Position numbers and translations under genes: made by a program
The notes under the pieces: model-generated
What the model was told of the DNA's origin: nothing
Database searches by the model: none
Seen by the model: only the letters and a program-made list of their open reading frames with translations
IMG/VR virus record: IMGVR_UViG_2585427767_000004
Source of the DNA: a virus
Lineage: Duplodnaviria > Heunggongvirae > Uroviricota > Caudoviricetes
Reading direction: 5' to 3' (one strand)
DNA length: 18,960 nucleotides
Shown here: positions 1 through 18,960 of the stretch, in pieces
Layout of the letters: every line of letters begins with the position of its first letter
How positions within the stretch are numbered: position 1 is the first letter of the stretch

Positions 1-884
1 ATGGGTATGCTGGAAAGAGAGATGAAAAACCTGGCGCGGCAGGCTGGCGGGGCGCACAAGATTGTCCATGACCGTATCGCCACGGCAGGACGGTTCTGTG
101 GACGCCTGATGGAACTGAACGTTCAGATACGCTATGTCCACCATTTAAAGACGAAGCATATTGAGGCGTATATTCAGATGCGGCTGGCGCAGGGGATTCA
201 GAAACAGACGCTGCATAATGAAACGGCGGCCATCCGTAAAATACTGACGCAGGCCGGGCGCGAAAAGCTGGCGCAGAGTGAGCGGATATCGAATAAATCG
301 CTGGGGCTGGCTGGCGTATCCCGCAACGGTACGCGGAAAGCCATTACGCCGGAATATTATCAACAGATGGCAGAGACTGCCCGGCTGAAAGACGCGGGAC
401 TGGAGGCAGCGCTGGAGCTGGCACGGCTGATGGGGTTACGTTCACAGGAAGCAGTACGCTGTTCCGGTTCACTAAAAACCTGGCGCGAAGCACTGGCGCA
501 CGGCGACACCCGGCTGACCGTGGTACTCGGCACCAAAGGCGGACGGCCCCGCGGCACCCTTATTCAGGATACTGGCGCAGTTAAACGGGCGCTTGAGACT
601 GCCATTGCGGTGACAGAACGGCGTAACGGCAGGCTGATTGATACGGCGAGCCTTAAACAGGCAATAAAATACTGGCGCAACCACACTTTGCGTATGGGCT
701 GACGGACAAATACTCCCCGCACTCACTGCGCTACGCCTGGGCGCAGGACGATATCCGCCGGTATCTGGCGCAAGGATTCAGCGAAAAAGAGGCGCTGGCA
801 ATGGTGGCGATGGGCCTGGGGCATGGCGACGGGCACGGTCGCTGGGTGAAGCAGGTGTACGCACACGAATGGAAGAAGGAATAA
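1..884 (+). pseudogene. Tyrosine recombinase (phage-type integrase), reading frame disrupted
   Basis: ORF 1..702 (233 aa) has an integrase-like N-terminal/central region including an Arg-containing box-I-like segment (RLTVVLGTKGGRPRG). TGA at 700-702 ends it, but the catalytic box II continues in another frame at 699..884 (LTDKYSPHSLRYAWAQDD...GLGHGDGHGRWVKQVYAHEWKKE, with His-x-x-Arg and a C-terminal Tyr). Either a real frameshift or a sequencing indel near 690-705. The ORF reaches the window start, so the true 5' end may lie upstream. Confidence 0.6.
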
Positions 885-1462
885 CAGCTTTCATGGCTGG
901 CGCAAAATAATACATTATGCAGTAACGGCGGTAATTTCTCTGATGCAGCTGTCAGGGAAAATCAAACCGGATAGCGCCGTTACTGCGTAACGCCAGCAAT
1001 TTACCACTCCCTCTTTACTGGATATGGCGCAGAGAGCAATGGGTATTGATTATACAGATCCAGACTACAATAACGCTTCTGGTGCAGGCTCTCATGATAC
1101 CTATCTGAATAAGCTGACTCCGTCAGAAAGGGAAAGGGTTATAAAGGTTAAAGGTGGCTAAGGGTAACAGCCCTGGCCGGAAAAGGCCGAAAACCAAAGG
1201 GCCACAAACTGGCGCAGTCCTGGATAGTTATGGTAGTTGAATGCAGGTTTGGTTGATCACAATACAGCCTGGTGTGTACAGCTTGTTCATTAACTGACCA
1301 CACTGCACGTTCACAACACCCCATCCAAAGAACAAAATGAATGCTTCCGGACTAACATCCTCACAGGCCGCTATATCGTGCCAAACAAGTACGCCAGTAA
1401 GTACGCGAGAGGAAAAATGAGAAGATCTTTATGAGAGGAAAAATTGTAACTCTTTGATTTAA

Positions 1463-1508
1463 ATGGTGCCGATAATAGGAGTCGAACCTACGACCTTCGC
1501 ATTACGAA
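1463..1508 (-). other. 3' fragment (about 46 nt) of tRNA-Thr(CGU), thrW-like; att core duplicate, not a functional tRNA
   Basis: Minus-strand sequence reads ATTCGTAATGCGAAGGTCGTAGGTTCGACTCCTATTATCGGCACCA: anticodon loop with CGT, T-arm GGTTCGACTCC, acceptor 3' strand and CCA. The sequence upstream of the anticodon loop (higher coordinates) does not form the D-arm or 5' acceptor strand, so only the 3' part is present. The match to E. coli thrW is from memory, not from a search. Confidence 0.8.
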
Positions 1509-2494
1509 TTATAAGAATCCGCTTCTAATTCAAAGCATTACCCCATTAACACTGCGCTCACACGTCCCACCACATCAAAACATGTAAAGCCTTGCAAGCC
1601 ATTGTGAGGCCTTATGTGTCTCAGTTTTGTCCCATCTTGTATTACGACTCGCATAGCCAATGAAGATAAACGTGACAACAAACGGCGAAGCAGTCTTCTT
1701 TTCTTTCACGCCTTCCCTGCACGCAGCATGCATACCTTTCTACCACAACTGAAGTGAATGCCTGTTATGAGCAACAAGCGGAAGTTAAATGGTTAGACGT
1801 TAGCATCGACTTACACAGGTCTAACCCAATGCGGCAGCTCCCGACAGGCTGGATGTTGTCAATGCTGAAAAGGGCAAGGGACGGGCAACCGCATATCTCG
1901 GCCTGCAGCGGCCCCTCCTGAAAGACGAGTCTCAGCGCTGGCATCGGCAGAATGCGTGACGGAACACATGACATCGATACGGGCGATGTTGAACAGTGTG
2001 CGTTCCCGTTCGGCAGGGGGGAGCGTGGTATGAACAGACCTGTTTTAGCCAGCCCGTATACCGGTCCCGTTTTCAGCTGTGTGAGGCGCTGAATGCCGTC
2101 GACGGGGTAGTCACTCACTTTTCCTGCGAGGGGCATCCCCGCGCCGCTGCGCGGCCATATGTTGTTTTCTCTTCCAGTGAGTTAGTGGCTCGCCGGACAG
2201 ACTGCGCAATCAGAATGGCTCACCGTCAGGGGCGCCTGCGGTACGTGTGGTGAGTGACAGGGGATTTCAGTGTTGCTTCGGGCAATTTTTTGTACTGCAT
2301 TGAACCCAATGATATCCGGTTAACCGGAAAGCCATGGCTGGGGTTAATCCCCCGCTGGCGAAGAAGGATAATGGATCACCATGCAACCTCTTGAAAATAC
2401 TTCCTTGATTATCAGAGTGTTTTTCCTCAAAATGTTTTTCTTTCAAACATTTTGTAATACACACTGCAATACACAACTTCTAAATGGATAAAGT

Positions 2495-3865
2495 ATGACT
2501 CTGAATGAATTTTCATCAACCACAGCATCTATTTTTGGTAATTTTGAAAAAATCATAAGAATGCTAAAAAGCATAAGTGACCCTAAATACATAACCGTTG
2601 CCAACAGAAGAAGCAAACTTTTGGGAAATATGTCCGAACATATTTCCATAATCAATAAATTCCATCCTTTCGCACATGCTGAATTCTTTACAAAAGAAGA
2701 AAAAGAAAATATCTTTTCACTACTAAAACTTACGGACAACTACATATCATCTATGATTTCTGATATTTTTTCAGATGATATTTATCGGAACATTATCACT
2801 ATCAATGATGATTTAATTAGGTATTCAAGAATATCTAAGTTTATCCAAGGCACGCATAATCAACCTAATACCTTAGCCATGTTCAAAAATCAAGCATCTA
2901 ATGAAATAGCCAAAGTGGTAGATCTGAAAAATGAAATTGAAATAAGTGCAACTCAAATCAGAGAGTTAGCAGTAAGAAATGCAAATTCTCATGATAAAAT
3001 CATTAAACTTGTTACGGACTTGAACGCCGAGACGAAAAAATTTGAAAGCGCCGGTTCTGAAATAGAATTCATACTAAAAAAGAGCAGAGATGCACTTATT
3101 GGTATAGAATCATCTAGTGAAAAGCTAAGAACTGTTGAAGAAACATTAAACAATATCGTTAATACAAACAAATCAATGCAAGACGAAATCATTAAAAAAT
3201 CTGCTGAGTCTGCCAGTGAGATTAAAAATCTCCTTGATAAAAAAAATGAAATTAAAGAATTAAAAACCATTATATCTGGTGAAATAAATAATGCGAAAGA
3301 ATTGAACTCTAAAGCTAATTCCGCATTGAATTTATCTGGAACATATAGGCTATCAAGACATTTTAGAGATGCATACAAAACCGCAAATAAAAACAAAAGG
3401 TTTTGGGCCTTTGTATCAATAGGAGCTGCAATCGTATGTATAGCATTCGTGGTTTATATGCTTGTCAAGATGAATGAAGTTAGTTCTTATCCTCCTACAG
3501 GCCAAGAGCCCAACTTATTATTATTATTCTTTGCTCGATTCTCAATGATTCCAGTATTAATAGGCTTCTTTGTATTTAGCGCCATACAATATGTTAAACA
3601 AAACAACATCAGTGAAGATTATGCGCATAAAAAATTGCTATCTGAAACTCTTGTATCTTTCAAGCAGGAAATCAATAAGAACGATACCGATAAATCATCA
3701 TTATTCATGGATAACATTCTTAAATCAGTATTAAGATCACCGCTTAGCTCCATAGACAAGAAGTCGCATCAAATGGAAATTGATAAAATAAACGAATTGA
3801 TTAATACGACATCTAAAATTAATAAAGAAATTATAGACCGCGTTTTGCCTGAGAAAGAGAAATAA
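2495..3865 (+). CDS. Hypothetical protein, 456 aa: coiled-coil-rich N-terminal domain, two predicted transmembrane helices, short C-terminal tail; candidate membrane effector (defence / superinfection exclusion); family not recognised
   Basis: Long uninterrupted ORF in a visibly AT-rich block, with ATG at 2495 and a weak GGA Shine-Dalgarno about 6 nt upstream. Residues about 309-330 (FWAFVSIGAAIVCIAFVVYMLV) and about 348-370 (LLLLFFARFSMIPVLIGFFVFSAI) are strongly hydrophobic. The N-terminal 300 aa are K/E/I/N-rich with heptad-like periodicity. No catalytic motif recognised. Confidence 0.8.
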   Translation: MTLNEFSSTTASIFGNFEKIIRMLKSISDPKYITVANRRSKLLGNMSEHISIINKFHPFAHAEFFTKEEKENIFSLLKLTDNYISSMISDIFSDDIYRNIITINDDLIRYSRISKFIQGTHNQPNTLAMFKNQASNEIAKVVDLKNEIEISATQIRELAVRNANSHDKIIKLVTDLNAETKKFESAGSEIEFILKKSRDALIGIESSSEKLRTVEETLNNIVNTNKSMQDEIIKKSAESASEIKNLLDKKNEIKELKTIISGEINNAKELNSKANSALNLSGTYRLSRHFRDAYKTANKNKRFWAFVSIGAAIVCIAFVVYMLVKMNEVSSYPPTGQEPNLLLLFFARFSMIPVLIGFFVFSAIQYVKQNNISEDYAHKKLLSETLVSFKQEINKNDTDKSSLFMDNILKSVLRSPLSSIDKKSHQMEIDKINELINTTSKINKEIIDRVLPEKEK

Positions 3866-5349: not shown

Positions 5350-8300
5350 ATGACAAATAAAAAAAATTTGAGTAATCCTTTTTCTACAGGCGGAGGCGGT
5401 GTTCATTTTGAAGCACATGTCCAAGCGTCTTTTGTTGCTCTAATGCTAACAGGCGGTAATGCACCTTGTCTTCCTTGTTGGCCCATAGTGGAGATAAATC
5501 TCCAGGGCAAGATTGATGGTTTTGATACCGACGACTTGATCGTCGTTGTTAAAGATTTCAACAGCAATGAAAAACGGAAGCTATTAGGACAAATAAAGCA
5601 TTCTATTTCATTTACGCAAGGTAATGCGATACTTGGGGAAGTTATACAGGCTGCTTGGAACGATTTCAACAATCCTGACTTGTTTACCAAGAACAAGGAT
5701 GTTATTGCACTGATCACCGGTCCGCTCAGTTCGACCGATACACACAATGTGCTCTGGTTATTGAATCAGGCTAGACACACAAAAACAGTCGATGAATTTT
5801 TGAGGAACGTTCAAAAAGCCAAGTTCAGCCCGCCTAAAAGTACTGAGAAACTGGAGGCCATCCAGTTTCATCTGAAGATGGCAAACAGTGGGAACGATTT
5901 AACAAACGATGAGCTTTATGACTTTTTGAACCATTTCCATTTACTAGGGTACGATCTGGGTAATGAATCAGGCGTCGTCCTTTCTTTGCTGCACTCCCAC
6001 ATAGCGCAATTCCATCAACAGTATCCTCAGTGGGTTTGGTCGCGGATAGTTGATATCGTACAAACTTGGAATAAAGATGCTGGCACTATCATTTCAAGTA
6101 AGCTACCTGAAGATCTTTTAGATGTTTTCAAACAAAGGGTTATTGCTGAAATACCTGAGAAGTTGAGGTTAGTACAACCGGTAGTCAAAACCGACTGGAC
6201 TCACCACCCAGATGCCTCTTATTTAGCCTTAGCAGTGTTGATTGGGCAATGGAATGATAAAAATGAGTGTGACCGAAATGTACTAACCCAATTGCTTGGT
6301 ATCAGCTATGACGAATGGCTAAGGAAGGCTCGAGAGATTTTACATAGCCCAGACAGTCCTTTGTCCCTAAAAAACGGCATTTGGAAAGTAACAAATCGAA
6401 TGGAGCTATGGAGTCTTCTTGGATCCCGCATTTTTGATCAGAATCTTGAATTGTTTAAGTCTTCCGCGATTTCCGTACTCAAAGAGCCAGACCCTGCTTT
6501 CGAATTACCTGCTGAAGAGCGTTACGCTGCTAGTATTCATGGTAAGGTGCTGAAGTTTTCATCCACGCTGCGACAAGGTATAGCAGAGGGTTTAGCCATA
6601 ATCGGGAGTCGGCCAGAGGTTTGCGTTAACTGCTCTCAGGGGAATGCTGAAACTTCCGTTAACGTCGCAATACATACAATTTTGACTGATGCAAACTGGG
6701 TTTTATGGGGTAGCCTAAACGGTTTGCTACCAACTTTGGCTGAAGCAGCTCCTGCAAAATTTCTTGATGCAGTTGAGAAGGCAATGCGTCAGACTCCTTG
6801 TGCATTTGATGAGCTTTTTTCTCAAGAAGTAAATGGTATCACTGGTGGTAATTATCTGACAGGACTGCTATGGGCTCTAGAAGAATTAGCCTGGGATGAG
6901 CAATACCTAGTACGCGTCTGTGTTGTACTGGCCGAACTTGCCAGCCACGATCCTGGGGGCAAGTGGGCTAATCGACCATCTAACTCGCTTACTACTATAT
7001 TATTACCGTGGTTTCCGCAAACGCTGGCATCTATAGAAAAACGAAAAGTTGCAGTCAACGTCATCTTGCAGGAATGGCCTGACATTGCCTGGAATTTACT
7101 CGTCCAGCTTCTACCCGGTCACCATCAAACCTCTTCTGGGTCACACAAGCCCTCTTGGCGCCGAATAATCCCAGATGATTGGGAAAGCAAAGTGACTAAT
7201 CAGGATTACTGGTTGCAGACATCTTTTTATGCTGAGCTTGCCGTCAAAAACGCCGGAGAAGATATCGAACGCCTTACCTTGTTGATTGATAATTTTGATG
7301 GCCTTCCATCTCCTGCTTTCGAACATCTTCTTAAGCACCTCTCTTCGGAAACAATTAATTGTCTTAATGAAGAGCAGCGAGTTGTAATTTGGGATCATCT
7401 TCATCGATTCGCAAATAAACATCGGCGATTCTCTAATGCTAATTGGGCTTTACCTGATGATCTGCTGACCAAAATCGAAAATGTTGCCGAGCAACTGGCA
7501 CCTACCAATCCATTCAACTTATATCAGCACCTTTTTTCAAATCGAGATTTTGATCTTTACTTAGAAAATGGCGATTGGGAAGAACGGAGAAATAAACTCG
7601 AATCAAGGCGCGAATCCGCAATATCAGAAATTCTTAAGCAAGATGGCGCAGAAGGCGTTATTCGATTTGCAGATCACGTTTCTGCGCCCCATCAAATAGG
7701 AAGTGTACTCGGCACTATCAACGATGATGTGTTCGAAAAACTTCTTTTGCCCCGTTTCCTCAATACAAAAGAAAATAAGTATAAGGCATTGGTAAGCGCT
7801 TTTATTTGGAAGCGTTTCTATCTCAAAGGCTGGGAGTGGTTCGACAATCTGGATAAAGCTGACTGGACTCCTGAACAGTTAGGCCAATTCTTTGCTTATC
7901 TGCCTTTTAACAAGGAGACCTGGACCCGAGTCTCTCATTATCCTCAAGCTTCCGAGAACGAATATTGGGCTCGCACCGATGCAAATCCTGACCTGGGTGA
8001 AGGTGACCTTACTAGTGCCATCGATAAGCTGATTGATCATGGCAGACCTCTTGCGGCAATCAATTGCCTGTGCAGGATGCATCAGACAAAGCAGCCAATC
8101 GATACTGAACAGTGTATCCGCGCTTTGCTTGCTGCCACTTCAACTAACGAATCTAGCTCCAACATGGATGGTTACAACATAACTACCCTTATCCAATTTC
8201 TTCAGACTGATCCCAAAGTGAATCCGGATAATCTTTTTCAGATCGAGTGGGCTTACCTTCCATTGCTCGATGGTCACCAAGATGCTGTGCCTAAGTTCCT

Positions 8301-8892
8301 TGAGAATAAAATGGCTAATGATCCAGAATTTTTCTGCGAAGTAATCCAACTCATTTATCGTTCTGACAAAGAAGACAATATGACAAGTGAACCAACAGAG
8401 GAATTGAAAGCAATCGCAAAAAATGCCTGGACTCTTTTGTACAACTGGAAGACACCGCCAGGAAGCCAATCAAATGGGACGTTCAACGGAGAACGCTTTA
8501 CTGAATGGCTTCAGAAAGTTAAGGAGGGTTCTACGGCATCAGGTCACCTGGACGTTGCACTCAGCAAAGTTGGTGAAGTCTTGATTTATACTCCCTCCGA
8601 ACCGAATGGCTTGTGGATAAACCGAGAGGTCGCAGCTGCTCTCAACGATCGAGATGCTGAGAGTATGCGCAGGGGCTACATGACAGGAGCCTACAACTCA
8701 CGAGGTGTTTATTGTGTTGACCCAACTGGAAAACCTGAGAGAGAGCTAGCTGACCAGTTCCGGGCAAAAGCAGAAGAAGTGGAAAACGCTGGTTTTCAGC
8801 GATTCGCCGTTACCTTAAGAGATTTAGCGGTTGGCTATGACCACGAAGCTGCACAGGTTATCAGCAATCTAAATATTGGAGAGGATGATTAA
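5350..8892 (+). CDS. Large hypothetical protein (about 1180 aa), no P-loop; family not recognised; candidate stand-alone defence or toxin protein
   Basis: Uninterrupted 3.5-kb ORF. The track starts at TTG 5344, but ATG 5350 (MTNKKNLSNPF...) is the more likely start. Moderately AT-rich compared with the tail genes. No Walker A (GxxxxGK[ST]) found on reading the translation. Gly-rich N-terminus (FSTGGGGVHFEAH), CxxC pairs (CLPC, CVNC), Trp-rich helical remainder. Putative terminator just downstream. Confidence 0.85.
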   Translation: MTNKKNLSNPFSTGGGGVHFEAHVQASFVALMLTGGNAPCLPCWPIVEINLQGKIDGFDTDDLIVVVKDFNSNEKRKLLGQIKHSISFTQGNAILGEVIQAAWNDFNNPDLFTKNKDVIALITGPLSSTDTHNVLWLLNQARHTKTVDEFLRNVQKAKFSPPKSTEKLEAIQFHLKMANSGNDLTNDELYDFLNHFHLLGYDLGNESGVVLSLLHSHIAQFHQQYPQWVWSRIVDIVQTWNKDAGTIISSKLPEDLLDVFKQRVIAEIPEKLRLVQPVVKTDWTHHPDASYLALAVLIGQWNDKNECDRNVLTQLLGISYDEWLRKAREILHSPDSPLSLKNGIWKVTNRMELWSLLGSRIFDQNLELFKSSAISVLKEPDPAFELPAEERYAASIHGKVLKFSSTLRQGIAEGLAIIGSRPEVCVNCSQGNAETSVNVAIHTILTDANWVLWGSLNGLLPTLAEAAPAKFLDAVEKAMRQTPCAFDELFSQEVNGITGGNYLTGLLWALEELAWDEQYLVRVCVVLAELASHDPGGKWANRPSNSLTTILLPWFPQTLASIEKRKVAVNVILQEWPDIAWNLLVQLLPGHHQTSSGSHKPSWRRIIPDDWESKVTNQDYWLQTSFYAELAVKNAGEDIERLTLLIDNFDGLPSPAFEHLLKHLSSETINCLNEEQRVVIWDHLHRFANKHRRFSNANWALPDDLLTKIENVAEQLAPTNPFNLYQHLFSNRDFDLYLENGDWEERRNKLESRRESAISEILKQDGAEGVIRFADHVSAPHQIGSVLGTINDDVFEKLLLPRFLNTKENKYKALVSAFIWKRFYLKGWEWFDNLDKADWTPEQLGQFFAYLPFNKETWTRVSHYPQASENEYWARTDANPDLGEGDLTSAIDKLIDHGRPLAAINCLCRMHQTKQPIDTEQCIRALLAATSTNESSSNMDGYNITTLIQFLQTDPKVNPDNLFQIEWAYLPLLDGHQDAVPKFLENKMANDPEFFCEVIQLIYRSDKEDNMTSEPTEELKAIAKNAWTLLYNWKTPPGSQSNGTFNGERFTEWLQKVKEGSTASGHLDVALSKVGEVLIYTPSEPNGLWINREVAAALNDRDAESMRRGYMTGAYNSRGVYCVDPTGKPERELADQFRAKAEEVENAGFQRFAVTLRDLAVGYDHEAAQVISNLNIGEDD

Positions 8893-12656: not shown

Positions 12657-15600
12657 TCAACGGATACTGATACCGGAAGCAGCTTTTTTGGTCACAATCA
12701 CTGTACAGTCTGTGATGTTACCTGCGCCCTGATTGCCTTTCTGGAAAACCTTAAACTCCAGAGTGACGCTTCCCCTGCCACTCGGCATATCAATAACCGC
12801 ACTGTAGCTACCGGGAATGGCCCCTTTAGTTTCTCTGGATGCGATTAATACACCGTTTTTGCGAACTTCAAAACCATAACCCGTGTATCTTGTACCTCCC
12901 GGGTTATTACCACTTCCCGGATCGCTATACGCTATTCCGTTAAAGATAATGGGCGGAATAATGATTTGACGGTCAAAGTTATGATCATCGCTGATGGTGA
13001 CTGTAACCGTCCCGTTTGGTGTTTCCGTATTACCCCACGTACCAGCCTGTTTCGGGAATGATTTGGATACAGCTTTAACGAAGTCACCTCTGACCTGAGT
13101 CGCCTCCAGCATGCCCTTAATCGTACAGTTTTCATTTACCGTGACATTGTTGAACGTCCCGGCGTTCGCATTCACACTGCCACTGATATCCGCATTTTTA
13201 GCGGTCAGCTTTCCGTCTGATGTCAGGGAAAATGCCGGTGGATTTCCACCACTGGTAATGGTCGGGGCCGTCAGGCGCTTCAGGAACACGTCGTTCATAA
13301 ATATCTGATTGCCCTGCGCCACAAACATCGGCGTTTCATTCCCGTTTGCCGGGTCAATAAACGCGATACGGTTAGCGGCAACCAGAAACTGGCTCAGCTT
13401 GCCTTCTTCCGTGTCCTCCATGCTGAGGCCAATACCCGCGACATAATGTTTGCCGTCTTTGGTCTGCTCAATTTTGACGCCCCACATGGCATTCCACTTA
13501 TCGTTAGCGTCCTGCCACTCTTTCGAAAACTCCTCCAGTTTGCTGGCGTTATCCTCCGTCAGCTCGACTTTTTCCAGCAGCTCCTTGCCGAGATGGGATT
13601 CGGTTATCTGGCCTTTGAAAAAATCCAGGTAACCTTCCGCATCATCGCTCGCCTGACCGACAGCCTCCACGAATGCCGATTTGCCAACGGTGTTCACACT
13701 GCGGATATAAAAGTAATAATCATGGCCCGGTTTGATATTGATACTGGCGGCTATCCAGTACATCCCCGTGCCAAGATAGCGGGCTGTGGTTTCAACCTGC
13801 CTGATATCCGCAATCCGTTTTTCCGAGAACCAGAACTCAAACTGTACCGTCGGGTCATAAACCGCAAGATGCGGCGTGGCGGTTATCTGAAAATAGCCCG
13901 GTGTCAGCTCAATCCGAGACGGCGCTGCCGGTGCGGCAATCCGGAACGATACCGATGCCGGATCGCCCTGCTGTCCCCACGCATTTACCGCCCGGACTGT
14001 CAGCCTGTAGTTCCCCAGCGCCAGTTGCGTGAAGCGGTATGTGGTTTCCGCCGTCCGGGCCGTGCTGACCAGCCGCTCACTGCCGTCATCCGCTGCCACG
14101 GTCAGGCGAAGCATGAAACTCACGCCCTTCACCACCTTCGGCGTGTCCCAGCGGGCCAGCACCTGGTATTCCCCACTGTCTGCGGTGACTTCGGCAGTCA
14201 GGTGCTGCACCGCTGGCGGCGTGACACCATTCACCGTGCCGCTCTGGTCGCCGTCAAAGTGCGCCCCGTTATCCACGATGGCTTCTTTTTCCGGTACATG
14301 CTGCACGGCGGTGATGGCATACGTGCCGTCGTCGTTCTCACGGATACTCACGCAGCGGAACAGGCGCTGGCGCAGCGTCGGCAGCTTCAGCCCCCACACG
14401 CTGTATTCAGCAACGCCGTCAGGAACACGGCTCACTTTCACCTTCACGCCGTCGGTGACGGACTGAACCTCCACGCTGACCGGATTGCCACTTCCGTCAA
14501 CCAGGCTTATCAGCGTGGTACCGGAGGATGGCAGCGTGATTTCACGGTCGAGCGTCAGCGTCCGGGTCTGGCTGTTTACCGCCAGCACGCGCCCGCCGGT
14601 GCTGATACCGGCATAGTCATCATCACAGATTTCAATGACATCGCCCGGCACATGGCGAAGCCCTTCGGCACCCACGCTGAAGTCCACCGTCTGCGTTTCC
14701 AGCAGCTCCGTTTTAATCAGCCACAGCCCGGCGCGGTGTGCCTGCCCCCGGCTGGTACAGCCAAAGGCATCCATCTTCGTGACGTTACGACCGTAACGGG
14801 CAATGGCCTGCGAGTCCTCCACAAGCTCTGTTGCCGTCTCCCAGCCGTTATCCGGGTCAATCCAGTTCACCTCAACGGCATTATGGCGGTCTTTCAGGGC
14901 GCTGAAGCTGTAGCGGAACGGCGCGCCATCATCCGGCATCACCACATTACTGCGGTTATAGGTCCACACCTTATCCGACGGTCGGTCCTGCACGAACGTC
15001 AGCGTCTGCCCGTTCCATACCGGCATACAGCGCATCGCCGAGCAGAAATCACTGAGCACATCCCACGCCTTGCGCTGTGTGGTCAGGTATGCATTACAGG
15101 TGATGCGCGGCTCCGTGCCGCCAAAGCCGTCCGGTACTGACTGGTCGCAGTACTGGCCGATGACATACAGCGCCCATTTGTCCACATCCGCCGCACCAAG
15201 ACGTTTCCCCATGCCGTAGCGTGGATGGGTCAGCATATCCCACAGACACCAGGCCATGTTGTTGCTGTATGCCGGTTTAAACGTTCCGTCCCAGATACCG
15301 CTGTATTGCCGCGTCTGCGGGTTATAGTTCGACGGCACCTGCAGAATGCGCCCGCGAAGATGATAATTACGGCTCACCTGCTGGCTGCCGAACTGCTCCG
15401 AATCCACCTGTACGCCGACCAGTGCCGTGTTCGGGTAGCACTGTTTCACATCGATGATTTCGGTGTATGACGACCAGAGCGTTTTGTTCTGCAGCTGGTC
15501 TGTGGTGCTGTCCGGTGTCATCCTGCGCATCCGGATATTGAACGGGCGCGGCGGCAGGTTATCCACCACCACCGAGGCCAGATACTGCGAGGTGGTTTTG

Positions 15601-16070
15601 CCCTTAATGGTGATGTCTTTTTCCGTCACCCAGCCACCGTTACGCTGTATCTGAACCAGCAGGCGGACTTCCGACGGATTCCTGTCTCCCTTTGAGGTGG
15701 TTTCCACCAGTGCCTGTACACCGAAGGTAAAGCGCAGACGGTCGATGTTTGCCGACGTGATGGTCCGGGTGATCGGCGTGTCATATTTCACTTCCGTACC
15801 CAGCACCGTCTCGGAGCCGGAGGATTCAAATCCCTCCGGCGGTGACTGCTCCTGCTCACCGGCCCGGAACACCACCGTGACGCCGGAGATGTTGGTATTC
15901 CCCTCAGTGTCCAGCACCGGCGTACTGTTCAGCAGCACACTTTTTAATCCCTCCACCGGACCTTCAACCGGCCCTTCGCTGATGGCATCGATCACACTCA
16001 GCAACTGCGTGGACTTCAGGTTGTCCTTCGCTTCGCGCGGGGTATGCCCCTTACTGCTGCCTTTACCCAT
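12657..16070 (-). CDS. J: Host specificity protein J (central tail fibre / tip attachment protein)
   Basis: 1137-aa protein beginning [34 protein letters not shown], colinear with lambda J as I recall it over most of its length. The C-terminal roughly 130 aa (from about [20 protein letters not shown]) appear different. GGAG ribosome-binding site upstream. Confidence 0.95.
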
Positions 16071-16130
16071 TCCTCACGCTCCATAAACGACAAAACCGCC
16101 CGCAGGCGGTTTCACATAAAACATTTTGCA

Positions 16131-16778
16131 TCAGCGACCAATCACCACAACCTGACCACCGTCCCCTTCGTCTGCCGTGCTGATCTCCTGAGAAACCACG
16201 CGTGACCCCACGCGCATTTCCCCGTACAGAACAGGCAGAACATTGCCCTGGGCAACCATGTTATCCAGTGAGGAGAAATACGTGTTCTGTTTGCCGTTAT
16301 CCGTTGTCTGTGTGCGGGGAGTTCTGGCTTTCGGTGCCAGCATCTGCGCCACACCGCCCAGGATCATACTGGCCCCTGCCGCATACATGCCCGATACAGC
16401 CGCGGCACCCAGCCAGCCCACAGGGTTCCACCATGCCACCGCAATCAGCGCAGCCCCCAGCACTGCCTGAAAAACACCGCCACTTTTGGCACCCGCCAGA
16501 CGCGGTACGATGTGGATCACGGCACCATTTGCCAGCGGCTCATTAAGACGGGCAGATAATTCGTTTTCGCCTGCATCACGCCCGGCAATGCGCACCTGAT
16601 ACCAGCCCTCATTCAGTTTCTGACGAAACGCCGGGAGCTGCGTGGCCAGCGCCCGGATAGCTTCGGCTCCCGTTTTCACACGAAGGTCGATGCGGTGGCC
16701 AAATCGTTGCAAATCCCCGTAAAGGCAGATGCGTGCCATGCCCGGTGACGCCAGAGGGAGTGTGTGCGTCGCTGCCAT
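16131..16778 (-). CDS. I: Tail assembly protein I
   Basis: MAATHTLPLASPGMARICLYGDLQRFG... with C-terminal ...KQNTYFSSLDNMVAQGNVLPVLYGEMRVGSRVVSQEISTADEGDGGQVVVIGR, matching lambda gpI as recalled; position between K and J. Confidence 0.9.
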   Translation of the reverse strand: MAATHTLPLASPGMARICLYGDLQRFGHRIDLRVKTGAEAIRALATQLPAFRQKLNEGWYQVRIAGRDAGENELSARLNEPLANGAVIHIVPRLAGAKSGGVFQAVLGAALIAVAWWNPVGWLGAAAVSGMYAAGASMILGGVAQMLAPKARTPRTQTTDNGKQNTYFSSLDNMVAQGNVLPVLYGEMRVGSRVVSQEISTADEGDGGQVVVIGR

Positions 16779-17419
16779 TTGTCGGTATACCTCTCTCGTT
16801 TGCTCAGTTGTTCAGGAATATGGTGCAGCAGCTCGCCGTCGCCGCAGTAAATGGCGGCATGATTCGGCACCGATGAACCAAAGCAGCACAGCAGCACATC
16901 GCCCGGCTGCGCCTCTGTCAGTGCGGCACGGTAAAAACCAGTCGCCTCCATATTGTCAAGATAGAGATTCTGGCCGTTACGCCACCAGTCATCCCCGCGA
17001 TGAAAATCCGGCATCTCAATTCCCGCCAGATGGTAAGCGTCCCGGAACAGCGTGTAACAGTCCGTCACCCCGTGCTCAAAGCGCCGCCCGGTGAGATGCG
17101 GCACACAGCGGAACTTATGAATCGCCCCGCGGCAGACCAGCCACCACGGCAAATCACTCTGCACCTGCAGCCGCCGGTCGGCCTCACTCAGCCAGGGCAG
17201 ACCACCGGGGTGGCTGTGGACCAGCGCCACAATCTCACCCTGCATCTCTGCCTGCAGCCAGCCCTCCGGAGCCATCCGGAAATACTCCTCCGGCTCACCG
17301 GAAATATTCACGCAGGGAAAATATCTTTCCCCCTCCGGCGTTCTCACCACGAAGCCGCACGACTCCGCTGGCGCACATCGCCGGGCGTGCGCCAGAATCG
17401 CTGATTCTGTCTCTGTCAT
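16676..17419 (-). CDS. K: Tail assembly protein K (JAB/MPN metalloprotease-like plus NlpC/P60-like domains)
   Basis: MTETESAILAHARRCAPAESCGF...; JAMM-type motif HSHPGGLPWLSEAD (HxH-x7-S-x2-D) is visible. ORF overlaps the start of I by about 100 nt in a different frame. Confidence 0.9.
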   Translation of the reverse strand: MTETESAILAHARRCAPAESCGFVVRTPEGERYFPCVNISGEPEEYFRMAPEGWLQAEMQGEIVALVHSHPGGLPWLSEADRRLQVQSDLPWWLVCRGAIHKFRCVPHLTGRRFEHGVTDCYTLFRDAYHLAGIEMPDFHRGDDWWRNGQNLYLDNMEATGFYRAALTEAQPGDVLLCCFGSSVPNHAAIYCGDGELLHHIPEQLSKRERYTDKWQRRTHSLWRHRAWHASAFTGICNDLATASTFV

Positions 17420-17424
17420 GGGAT

Positions 17425-17968
17425 TTACTGCGAAAGTTTGTTAATGGAAAGGAAGCCGCCAAAGTTGCCGACGTTATTGCGGAACTTACAGCCGCTCAGG
17501 CATTTGCTGCATTTATCCTTCGTGATATCGGATGTTGGCTGGTCATATTCATCCGCGACAGCCGGACCGCTATAACCGCACTCATCACCGCGATAGGTCC
17601 AGGTGCAGGTGTTGGCCAGCATGATACGTCCCGGAAAAACAGCGCCATCCGTTTCCGTCGGTGTGGACAACACAAAGGAGGCACTTACCGCGCTCAGTTC
17701 GCTGCACTGCTCAATGCGCCAGCGGCTGATCACCTCCTGCTCTGGATCGGCGTCGCTGTTTCCGTTGACGAAGTTCACCGCATCCAGAAAACGGGCATAA
17801 ACCTTACGCCTGACCACCGTTCCGCCGACCAGACTCTGCAGGTCTTCCGCCATCCCGGTGACCATACCGTACAGGTTAGAAACCGTCAGCATGGGGCGCG
17901 TACTGGTGCCTTTGCCATTCAGTTCGAAACCACTCCCCTGAATGGGATACGCCTGATACTGTCGCCCC
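17425..17968 (-). pseudogene. L: Minor tail protein L, 5'-truncated by IS insertion
   Basis: From ...GRQYQAYPIQGSGFELNGKGTSTRP to the C-terminal ...GNFGGFLSINKLSQ resembles lambda gpL. The first codons of the track ORF (MSNIWGAVQ, 17969..17994) are encoded by the IS left end, and the expected N-terminal roughly 50 residues of L are absent from this side. Confidence 0.8.
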
Positions 17969-18010
17969 TGAACTGCACCCCAAATGTTGGACATAATCTG
18001 ACATCTGAAG

Positions 18011-18541
18011 GTGCAGTTTATGAAACATTCATTTGAAGTAAAACTTGCCGCTGTAAATCATTACCTGGCTGGTCATGCAGGCATCATTTCTACGGCAAAA
18101 CTCTTTCAACTTTCTCACACCAGCCTCTCACACTGGATTAATCTTTTTCTTCTTCACGGTCCTCGGGCACTGGATTGCAGACACAAGCGTAGCTATTCTC
18201 CTGAAGATAAACTTTGCGTGGTTCTTTATGCTCTCGGGCATTCTGAGTCTCTACCCCGGGTAGCTGCCCGGTTTAACATTCCCAGCCACAACACGGTTAA
18301 AAACTGGATAAAAGGCTACCGCAAATCTGGTAATGAGGCCTTTATCAGGCGCAGGAAGGAGAAAAGCATGACCCGTTCTGATGATACCCATGAAAACGAG
18401 GCAAACATGACGCCGGAAGAGATGAAGAATGAGCTGCGTTATCTTCGCGCAGAAAATGCATATCTGAAAGCCATGCAGGAGCATCTCCTGGAAAAAAAGC
18501 GCCAGGAGCTGGAGAAAAAACGAAAGTCATCCGGAGCCTGA
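18011..18541 (+). CDS. IS3-family transposase OrfA (HTH DNA-binding component)
   Basis: 176-aa ORF with helix-turn-helix-like N-terminus and a leucine-zipper-like C-terminus (ELRYLRAENAYLKAMQEHLLEKK). The true start may be ATG 18020 (MKHSFEVKLAAVNHY). Confidence 0.85.
   Translation: MQFMKHSFEVKLAAVNHYLAGHAGIISTAKLFQLSHTSLSHWINLFLLHGPRALDCRHKRSYSPEDKLCVVLYALGHSESLPRVAARFNIPSHNTVKNWIKGYRKSGNEAFIRRRKEKSMTRSDDTHENEANMTPEEMKNELRYLRAENAYLKAMQEHLLEKKRQELEKKRKSSGA
18493..18499 (+). promoter_or_regulatory. Programmed -1 ribosomal frameshift site (A AAA AAG) for OrfAB fusion
   Basis: Heptamer A-AAA-AAG in the orfA zero frame at 18493-18499, with orfB open in the -1 frame from here on. Confidence 0.6.
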
Positions 18542-18960
18542 GGTGCGGACACTGCCAGTCTGACCTGTTAAAGGCTGCAGGGCTGGCCAGAAGCACGCTG
18601 TACTACCAGCTGTCACTGCAGAAGGCTAAGGACAAGTATGCTGATGTGAAACAGCTCATAGCCTCCATCTTCCATGAACACCGGGGATGTTATGGGTACC
18701 GGCGGATCCATTGTGAGCTTCAGAAAAGAGGTCTTAAGTTCAGTGGCAAAACAGTGCGAAAACTGATGCAACAGCTCGGCCTGAAGTCTCCTGTGCGCCT
18801 GAAGAAATACCGGTCTTACCGGGGAAATATGGGACTCGCTGCAGAAAATATCCTTCAGCGACAGTTCAAAGCGGAAGCTCCCTGTGAGAAATGGGTGACA
18901 GATATCACCGAATTCAGGGCTGGCGGACAAAAACTGTACCTGTCCCCGATACTTGATTTG
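18493..18960 (+). CDS. IS3-family transposase OrfB (DDE integrase-like domain), reached by -1 frameshift; 3' end outside window
   Basis: In the -1 frame after the slippery site the translation reads ...LLKAAGLARSTLYYQ...HRGCYGYRRIHCELQKRGLKFSGKTVRKLMQQLGL...KWVTDITEF..., typical of the N-terminal part of IS3-family OrfB. No stop before the window end. Confidence 0.8.

What the first reader, a model, noticed from the sequence alone, without database searches (positions are those of the whole stretch)
17425..18960. IS150-group element inserted into tail gene L: prophage likely defective while cargo genes remain intact
The IS left end (TGAACTGCACCC... at 17969) abuts L codons corresponding to about residue 45 of lambda L, and the first nine codons of the apparent L ORF are IS-derived. 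Disruption of an essential tail gene should prevent production of infectious particles. Meanwhile the two cargo genes retain long intact reading frames, consistent with selection on cargo in a domesticated prophage. The IS has the A-AAA-AAG frameshift site and an intact orfA, so it may be active.
Basis: partly seen in the sequence, partly recalled or inferred. Interest (0 to 1): 0.5.

Follow-up and report, generated by a model that had tools for sequence, protein, structure and literature searches.

The report
IS1397 inserted in prophage tail gene L
A known E. coli insertion sequence (IS1397) has recently inserted into tail gene L of an otherwise intact lambda-like prophage, which is an ordinary event except that this element normally inserts only into intergenic REP palindromes.

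Summary
A lambda-type L gene (minus strand) loses homology at 17968-17970, and IS1397 begins at 17969 (TGAACTGCACC) and runs to the window end inside orfB. IS1397 is an IS3-family, IS150-like element, 99.9-100% identical here to copies in 1722 of 5426 complete E. coli genomes. The break is at L codon 52/53, not about 45. The A AAA AAG slippery site (18493-18499) is in phase and orfA (173 aa) is intact.

I recovered the missing right junction from the same strain (E. coli 5-366-08_S3_C3; IMG genome 2585427747). It reads IS right end, then CCC, then L codons 53 to 1, so this is a simple insertion with a 3-bp duplication. It is not an assembly artefact.

The "domesticated prophage, cargo under selection" reading is not supported. 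A sister prophage without the IS differs by 2 bases in 11.3 kb. In the IS-bearing strain all genes from Nu1 to M and from K to the tail fibres are full length. The insertion is therefore recent, and intact cargo genes say nothing about selection. Loss of tail assembly is inferred from L being split inside its N-terminal domain.

The only unusual point is the target. IS1397 normally inserts in REP/PU loops (71 of 73 surveyed flanks). Here it inserted in a coding site with a perfect PU left-arm motif at the usual distance but no hairpin.

The parts
17425..17970 (-). 3' part of lambda-type tail gene L (codons 52-232 plus stop). It is strictly L-derived up to 17968; 17969-70 (TG) is shared with the IS end.
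   Evidence: Pfam PF05100 and TIGR01600 match from ORF residue 9. It is 99.98% identical to the intact L locus in L003 up to 17970.
17971..17994 (-). Eight IS-derived codons (MSNIWGAV, with ATG at 17994-17992) that give the truncated L an apparent start codon.
   Evidence: Translation and alignment to IS1397 copies.
17951..17958 (+). GCCTGATA, a perfect match to the left-arm motif of REP/PU sequences, ending 10 nt before the IS (the modal distance).
   Evidence: Survey of 73 distinct IS1397 left flanks: 64 carry GCC[GT]GAT[AG] ending 7-11 nt from the IS, with mode 10 (35 of 73). Only 0.07% of position/orientation pairs in the window satisfy this rule.
17966..17968 (.). Left copy of the 3-bp target-site duplication (CCC).
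   Evidence: The left flank (window) and right flank (L140) overlap by exactly 3 nt (CCC) on the uninterrupted L003 sequence. Only the 3-bp prediction of the chimeric protein exists in the protein collection.
17969..18960 (+). First 992 bp of IS1397 (1432 bp in full), running to the window end.
   Evidence: 100% identity over 971 nt to RefSeq 'IS3-like element IS1397' copies, found in 1722 of 5426 genomes. One synonymous difference from L001 at 18861.
17969..17993 (+). Left terminal inverted repeat (TGAACTGCACCCCAAATGTTGGACA), imperfectly matching the right end.
   Evidence: Comparison of the two ends of the L001 copy and with the IS150 ends.
18020..18541 (+). orfA (173 aa, HTH domains), intact.
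   Evidence: Pfam HTH_28 and HTH_Tnp_1. It is an exact protein seen on more than 1000 contigs.
18493..18499 (+). A AAA AAG slippery heptamer for -1 programmed frameshifting, in phase with orfA.
   Evidence: Frame computed. The -1 fusion gives 449 aa, the length of the RefSeq 'programmed frameshift' CDS.
18499..18960 (+). 5' part of orfB in the -1 frame (HTH_21 and the start of the integrase core). The rest lies beyond the window.
   Evidence: Pfam HTH_21 in the window part. rve and rve_2 appear only in the full-length protein. The full orfB is open in L140 from the same strain.
12657..17419 (-). Downstream late-operon tail genes K (16676-17419), I (16131-16778) and J (12657-16070), all full length.
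   Evidence: ORF list, Pfam labels, and the same gene sizes as in intact prophages.

Best explanation
One copy of IS1397 (a 1432-bp IS3-family element of the IS150 type, mobilised by a DDE transposase made through -1 frameshifting at A AAA AAG) inserted into gene L of a lambda-like prophage in E. coli 5-366-08_S3_C3. The insertion lies between codons 53 and 54, in antisense orientation to the late operon, and duplicated 3 bp (CCC). It splits L into two fragments. One is a 77-aa N-terminal piece (53 L residues plus 24 residues read from the IS). The other is a C-terminal piece (residues 52-232) that acquires an ATG from inside the IS end. The split falls inside the N-terminal hub (HDI) beta-sandwich of gpL, so neither piece should assemble into the tail tip, and the prophage by itself should produce tailless heads on induction. 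That last step is inferred, not shown. The event is recent: an IS-free copy of the same prophage is almost base-identical, and every other head and tail gene examined is intact. The target is not a REP/PU palindrome, which is the usual IS1397 target. It is a coding sequence carrying the PU arm motifs at the canonical spacing, which suggests the transposase selected it by primary-sequence resemblance.
For: IS identity:
- The IS part differs at one base from a RefSeq-annotated IS1397 copy and is 100% identical over 971 nt to other copies.
- The element is 1432 bp, with a 173-aa OrfA and a 449-aa OrfAB.
- Domains are HTH_28, HTH_21, rve and rve_2.
- IS150 is its closest K-12 relative.

Left junction:
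- It lies at 17968/17969.

Right junction:
- L140 reads ...GGGGTTCAGTTCA|CCC|TGCCAGGTGACC..., and its 269-nt flank is identical to the intact sister L003.
- The predicted 77-aa chimera is an exact database entry from the same strain. Predictions for duplications of 0, 1, 2, 4, 5 or 6 bp are absent.
- The truncated L in the window is annotated in that same strain.

Recent event:
- L003 shows 2 mismatches in 11,295 bases and has an intact 232-aa L.
- L267 shows 2 mismatches in 9185 bases with no gaps, and carries full-length Nu1, A, B, E and H among others.

L function:
- gpL forms the trimeric hub ring with gpJ, and its HDI domain spans residues 1-166 (PMC10721106).

Target:
- GCCTGATA (8/8) ends 10 nt before the IS.
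- TGACCGGC (6/8 to the right-arm motif) starts 10 nt after it. Both are the modal positions.
- The site has no hairpin potential: -3.5 kcal/mol, z 0.08, against -15 kcal/mol, z -5.5 for a real PU.
Against: - Physical adjacency of the two L halves is not shown on a single contig. Both contigs end inside the IS, overlapping by about 1 kb of IS sequence that is also repeated elsewhere in the genome.
- The IS sequence at contig ends may be a consensus of several copies, so "intact transposase in this copy" is not certain.
- No experiment shows loss of particle production, and another lambdoid prophage in the same cell could supply L in trans.
- The part of the prophage beyond Nu1/cos (lysis, early, immunity and integration genes) was not retrieved.
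- The target-mimicry argument rests on essentially one event. The right-arm match (6/8) has a chance probability of about 1% per offset.
Confidence: 0.9

Rival explanations
1. The L/IS junction is an assembly artefact: a chimeric contig end created by collapsing repeats.
For: The window and both isolate contigs end inside the IS, which is a multi-copy repeat. No complete E. coli genome among 5426 carries the junction.
Against: The same left junction occurs in two isolate assemblies and in an independent ENA metagenome contig. The reciprocal right junction exists in the same strain, with a perfect 3-bp duplication and a flank identical to the intact sister. A second variant of the chimeric product occurs in ENA data.
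Confidence: 0.01
2. The prophage is an old, domesticated remnant kept for its cargo genes, and the IS hit is one of many decay lesions.
For: The 1180-aa cargo gene persists beside clearly degraded prophage remnants in other strains. The lysis, early and integration half of this prophage was not seen.
Against: An IS-free sister prophage is 99.98% identical. Every head and tail gene from Nu1 to the tail fibres, except L, is full length in the IS-bearing strain. No other lesion was seen in about 27 kb of prophage examined.
Confidence: 0.07
3. After insertion, recombination between IS1397 copies rearranged the chromosome, so the two L halves are no longer adjacent and part of the prophage sits elsewhere.
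For: The two halves are on separate contigs of 458 kb and 33.5 kb. IS1397 is multi-copy in many genomes. Several metagenome contigs show IS1397 with non-matching flanks.
Against: Matching 3-bp duplications on both flanks are what a simple insertion leaves. Short-read assemblers break at any repeated IS regardless of rearrangement.
Confidence: 0.05
4. The prophage is genetically L-minus but still yields infectious particles, because another lambdoid prophage in the same cell supplies a compatible L protein in trans.
For: E. coli genomes that carry this L-K-I region have a median of 3 such places. L proteins of different prophages are more than 90% identical.
Against: It is unknown whether this strain has a second L gene or whether such prophages are co-induced. 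Progeny genomes would still carry L::IS1397 and could not propagate alone.
Confidence: 0.2

Closest known systems
IS1397 (IS3 family; described in natural E. coli isolates; Clement et al. 1999 J Bacteriol 181:6929, cited in PMC1525189)
   Same: The sequence is essentially identical, with 100% identity over 971 nt to RefSeq-annotated copies. It is 1432 bp with TG...CA ends. It has orfA and orfB with an A AAA AAG frameshift site, and 3-4 bp target duplications.
   Different: The published hallmark is insertion into the loop of REP/PU palindromes in intergenic BIMEs. This copy sits in a protein-coding phage gene at a site that cannot form the hairpin.
IS150 of E. coli K-12 (insJ/insK)
   Same: It has the same architecture. 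OrfA is 173 aa in both, OrfB is 51% identical over 277 aa, the terminal repeats are similar (TGTACTGCACCC... against TGAACTGCACCC...), and it uses the same type of slippery heptamer.
   Different: It is a different element (OrfA only 27% identical), and RefSeq names the two families separately. As far as I know, IS150 is not REP-specific.
PU-independent transposition of IS1397 in Yersinia pestis (Wilde et al. 2002 J Bacteriol 184:4739; reference confirmed, paper not readable here)
   Same: IS1397 can use targets that are not canonical PUs. From my memory of the abstract, this was taken to favour direct target recognition by the transposase.
   Different: That was an experimental system in a host without PUs. 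Here a natural E. coli, full of genuine PUs, carries an insertion in a PU-like coding site.
Cryptic lambdoid prophages of E. coli K-12 (DLP12, Rac, Qin), from general knowledge
   Same: They are lambda-type prophages unable to make particles, while some of their accessory genes are retained.
   Different: Those have lost whole modules by deletion. Here a single IS insertion is the only lesion seen across about 27 kb.

Membership tests
IS3 family / IS150 group / IS1397 | Two consecutive overlapping ORFs (orfA with HTH, orfB with a DDE integrase core) joined by -1 programmed frameshifting at an A AAA AAG-type heptamer | tested here: met
   orfA is 173 aa. The heptamer at 18493-18499 is in phase. 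The fusion is 449 aa with HTH_28, HTH_21, rve and rve_2. The catalytic core lies outside the window but is present in L140 from the same strain.
IS3 family / IS150 group / IS1397 | Imperfect terminal inverted repeats ending 5'-TG...CA-3' | tested here: met
   The left end TGAACTGCACCCC is at 17969. The right end ...GGGGTTCAGTTCA is in L140.
IS3 family / IS150 group / IS1397 | 3-4 bp target-site duplication | tested here: met
   CCC is duplicated. Other copies show duplications of 3 or 4 bp.
IS3 family / IS150 group / IS1397 | Closest relationship to IS150 rather than to IS3 or IS2 group elements | tested here: met
   OrfB is 51% identical to IS150 InsK, against 33% (partial) to IS3 InsF and 23% to IS2 InsD. 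IS51 and IS407 group references were not compared, and ISfinder was not available.
IS3 family / IS150 group / IS1397 | Near-identity to the named element IS1397 | tested here: met
   100% over 971 nt to copies annotated 'IS3-like element IS1397 family transposase'.
IS1397 target specificity | Insertion into the loop of a REP/PU palindrome in an intergenic BIME | tested here: not met
   The target is inside the L coding sequence. Left-arm motif 8/8 and right-arm motif 6/8 lie at canonical distances, but the inner stem is not complementary and no hairpin is predicted.
Lambda gpL (Phage_tail_L, PF05100 / TIGR01600) | Full-length protein of about 232 aa with an N-terminal HDI domain and a C-terminal Fe-S domain | tested here: not met
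   Only residues 52-232 are encoded at this place. Residues 1-53 are on the other side of the IS. The sequence is clearly L, but the gene is split.
Domesticated / cryptic prophage | Multiple inactivating lesions or module loss, with accessory genes preferentially conserved | tested here: not met
   There is one lesion in about 27 kb examined. The sister prophage is 99.98% identical and uninterrupted. The lysis, early and integration region was not examined.

The most novel reading that the evidence does not exclude
The lambda-type L gene contains a cryptic, non-palindromic mimic of a REP/PU: GCCTGATA-N7-CCC-N7-TGACCGGC. IS1397 transposase would recognise it by primary sequence alone, making it a recurrent insertion site. 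On this reading, the two L::IS1397 variants arose by independent insertions at the same nucleotide. One variant is the isolate lineage. The other is an ENA metagenome lineage that differs by 6 clustered SNPs on one side and a C20S change on the other, while the IS-free sister is almost identical to the isolate. This natural 'half-target' would show that hairpin formation is dispensable for REP targeting by this transposase.
Probability: 0.25. Interest if true: 0.3.

Novelty: already known. Interest (0 to 1): 0.15.

Why it matters
Practically, this prophage should be annotated as L::IS1397 and probably tail-defective. It should not be described as an anciently domesticated element, and its intact accessory genes should not be read as evidence of selection. 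More generally, a near-identical IS-free sister can date such lesions. The one point of wider interest is small. A REP-specific IS was found in a coding site that keeps the REP arm motifs and spacing but cannot fold. This is a natural data point on how IS1397 transposase recognises its target (by sequence rather than by hairpin), and it would be easy to test.

Tried and rejected
- Junction scan of GTDB species representatives: no hit.
- Megablast of the L'+IS segment against 5426 complete E. coli genomes: no genome carries the junction.
I reached the contig through the IS right-end pattern instead.
A rarer tape-measure 40-mer worked.
- The remaining about 18 kb of the 33.5-kb contig could not be reached, because no fetched locus extends past its cos-proximal end.
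- The primary IS1397 papers (PMC94167, PMC95333, PMC169884, PMC135288) are not held. No paper mentions the strain name.
- tRNA and Rfam scans of the window: nothing.
- No sigma-70-like outward promoter near the junction.
- Pfam, NCBIfam and PADLOC gave no function for the two cargo genes. The PDB sequence search of the 1180-aa gene gave none either.
- I considered the second A-run (18515-18520) as the frameshift site. I rejected it because it is not a phased X XXY YYZ heptamer.

Full report
**What is at the coordinates**

The window carries the tail end of a lambda-like prophage on the minus strand: J (12657-16070), I (16131-16778), K (16676-17419) and an L ORF (17425-17994). The L ORF matches Pfam Phage_tail_L and TIGR01600 only from its ninth residue. 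Comparison with intact L genes shows that DNA homology ends at 17970. From 17969 the sequence is TGAACTGCACCCC..., the left end of an insertion sequence that RefSeq annotates as "IS3-like element IS1397".

The TG at 17969-70 fits both L and the IS. Eight codons of the apparent ORF (MSNIWGAV) are purely IS-derived, and the ninth (Q52) is shared. The break is therefore at L codon 52/53 of 232, not about 45.

**Identity and state of the IS**

- A full copy is 1432 bp. The window holds its first 992 bp, which differ from the L001 copy by one synonymous base.
- Those 992 bp are 100% identical to copies in other genomes. IS1397 occurs in 1722 of 5426 complete E. coli genomes, with a median of 2 and up to 40 copies.
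- orfA (18020-18541) is an intact 173-aa protein.
- A AAA AAG at 18493-18499 is in the orfA phase. A -1 shift there gives a 449-aa OrfAB, the same length as the RefSeq "programmed frameshift" CDS. Its domains are HTH_28, HTH_21, rve and rve_2.
- Among K-12 IS3-family elements the closest is IS150. OrfB is 51% identical, OrfA is also 173 aa, and the terminal repeats are similar.
- The window itself stops before the catalytic core.

**The missing right end**

The window ends inside the IS, as do the draft contigs that carry the same junction. I predicted the protein that would be encoded if the IS had inserted with target duplications of 0-6 bp. That protein is L codons 1-53 reading on into the reverse complement of the IS right end.

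Only the 3-bp prediction exists in the 15-billion-protein collection. It is a 77-aa protein annotated in E. coli 5-366-08_S3_C3, on contigs up to 33,552 bp. The truncated L in the window is annotated in the same strain, on contigs of 17,592 and 458,209 bp.

IMG/VR holds both contigs of that genome (IMG 2585427747). L136 is the left-junction contig. L140 is the start of the 33,552-bp contig.

L140 reads IS1397 nt 27-1432, then CCC, then TGCCAGGTGACC..., which is L codons 53 to 1, followed by M. Its 269-nt flank is identical to the uninterrupted relative. The two flanks overlap by exactly CCC on that reference.

This is a simple insertion with a 3-bp duplication, and both halves of L are present. 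The IS reconstructed from the two contigs has open orfA and orfAB frames. One caveat applies: IS sequence at contig ends may be a consensus of several copies.

**Not an artefact**

The left junction is seen in two isolate assemblies and in an ENA metagenome contig, L006. A one-residue variant of the chimeric 77-aa product also occurs in ENA data.

**Age of the event and state of the prophage**

- A 340-kb contig of another assembly (L003, GCA_041221415.1) carries the same prophage with an intact 232-aa L. It differs from the window by 2 bases in 11,295.
- In the IS-bearing strain, the 13.6 kb following L140 (L267) is contiguous with it. It differs from L003 by 2 bases in 9185, without gaps.
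- L267 encodes full-length H (853 aa), T, G, V, U, Z, FII, FI, E (341), D, C, B (533), A (641) and Nu1 (181).

L is thus the only lesion seen across roughly 27 kb of prophage, and the insertion is very recent. The lysis, early and integration half of the prophage could not be retrieved.

**Consequence for the phage (inferred)**

In lambda, gpL forms the trimeric hub ring of the tail tip together with gpJ. Residues 1-166 form one beta-sandwich (HDI) domain, and residues 154-232 form the Fe-S domain (PMC10721106). A split after residue 53 cuts the HDI domain, so neither fragment should assemble, and the prophage alone should make no tails.

This is an inference from established lambda biology, not a test. 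Genomes that carry this L-K-I region have a median of three such places, so L could be supplied in trans by another prophage.

**The unusual aspect: the target**

IS1397 is known for inserting into REP/PU palindromes (PMC1525189). I surveyed 73 distinct left flanks of IS1397 in metagenome contigs:

- 64 carry GCC[GT]GAT[AG] ending 7-11 nt before the IS, with mode 10 (35 of 73).
- 7 more carry a one-mismatch version, and only 2 have none.
- Where both flanks belong together, duplications are 3 or 4 bp.
- The right-arm motif most often starts 10 nt after the IS.

The L site has GCCTGATA (8/8) ending exactly 10 nt before the IS, and TGACCGGC (6/8) starting exactly 10 nt after it. Its inner arms are not complementary. 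As single-stranded DNA it shows no hairpin through the site (-3.5 kcal/mol, z 0.08), against -15 kcal/mol (z -5.5) for a genuine PU.

Only 0.07% of position/orientation pairs in the window satisfy the left-arm rule, so the site choice is unlikely to be random. The insertion looks like an off-target hit on a sequence mimic of a PU.

PU-independent transposition of IS1397 has been reported experimentally in Yersinia pestis. That reference was confirmed, but the paper was not readable. This is therefore a small addition rather than a new principle. None of the 5485 IS1397 places in complete genomes is at this junction, so the site is a rare target.

**Open point**

The ENA lineage with the same insertion differs from the isolate by 6 SNPs clustered in 17342-17584 and by C20S on the other side. 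The IS-free sister is nearly identical to the isolate. Either one insertion was followed by recombination between prophages, or the same site was hit twice. I could not decide between these.

**Verdict**

This is a real, well-defined and ordinary event: a known IS in a known phage gene. The IS identification, the disruption of L, the 3-bp duplication and the location of the other L half are established. "Defective" is plausible but inferred. "Domesticated, cargo under selection" is not supported.

Noticed in passing
window 5350-8892 (+): An 1180-aa ORF with no Pfam, NCBIfam, PADLOC or PDB-sequence match, and GC of 40-45% against 58% in the tail genes. It matches PHROG 18693 (unknown function, E 1e-118). 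In other E. coli it always sits next to the tail-fibre end of lambdoid prophages at the paoD/ykgJ locus, and it is kept even where the prophage is reduced to a remnant. It is a candidate accessory (possibly defence) gene of unknown function.
   Followed up: partly
window 2495-3865 (+): A 456-aa ORF in a 32-40% GC islet, with only weak sub-threshold similarity to the DruC and ZorA models of PADLOC. It is also present (at least 90% identical) in Citrobacter, Enterobacter and Cronobacter, so it is likely mobile on its own.
   Followed up: partly
window 1-1509: An integrase-like gene (Pfam Phage_int_SAM_2 plus Integrase_1) starts at base 1. In other genomes the matching stretch is annotated 'integrase domain-containing protein | tRNA-Thr'. 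ARAGORN finds no tRNA in the window, so at most a partial tRNA or att remnant may be present.
   Followed up: no
L006 (ENA contig), aligned to window 17319-18108: It has the same L::IS1397 junction but 6 SNPs, all within 17342-17584 and none in the 384 nt next to the IS. The matching right-junction product in ENA data has C20S. This is either a mosaic recombination boundary or an independent insertion.
   Followed up: partly
L017, L021, L031, L034, L038 and other metagenome loci: Many metagenome contigs show IS1397 flanked by PU halves that do not belong together (no target duplication). These are either chimeric assemblies across IS copies or recombination between copies.
   Followed up: no
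L056 (metagenome contig): This is another IS1397 copy in a poor PU. GCCGGATG lies at the canonical distance on the left and only CCGGC at +14..+18 on the right, with a 3-bp duplication (ACC). It resembles the L site.
   Followed up: no
window 18861: The window has A where the sibling contig (L004), L140 and L001 have G (synonymous CGA/CGG in orfB). This may reflect mixing of reads from different IS copies at a contig end.
   Followed up: no
L131, L133 (GTDB representatives): Exact IS1397 left ends appear in short contigs labelled Parasporobacterium MAG and Microbacterium sp. These are most likely E. coli contamination of those assemblies.
   Followed up: no
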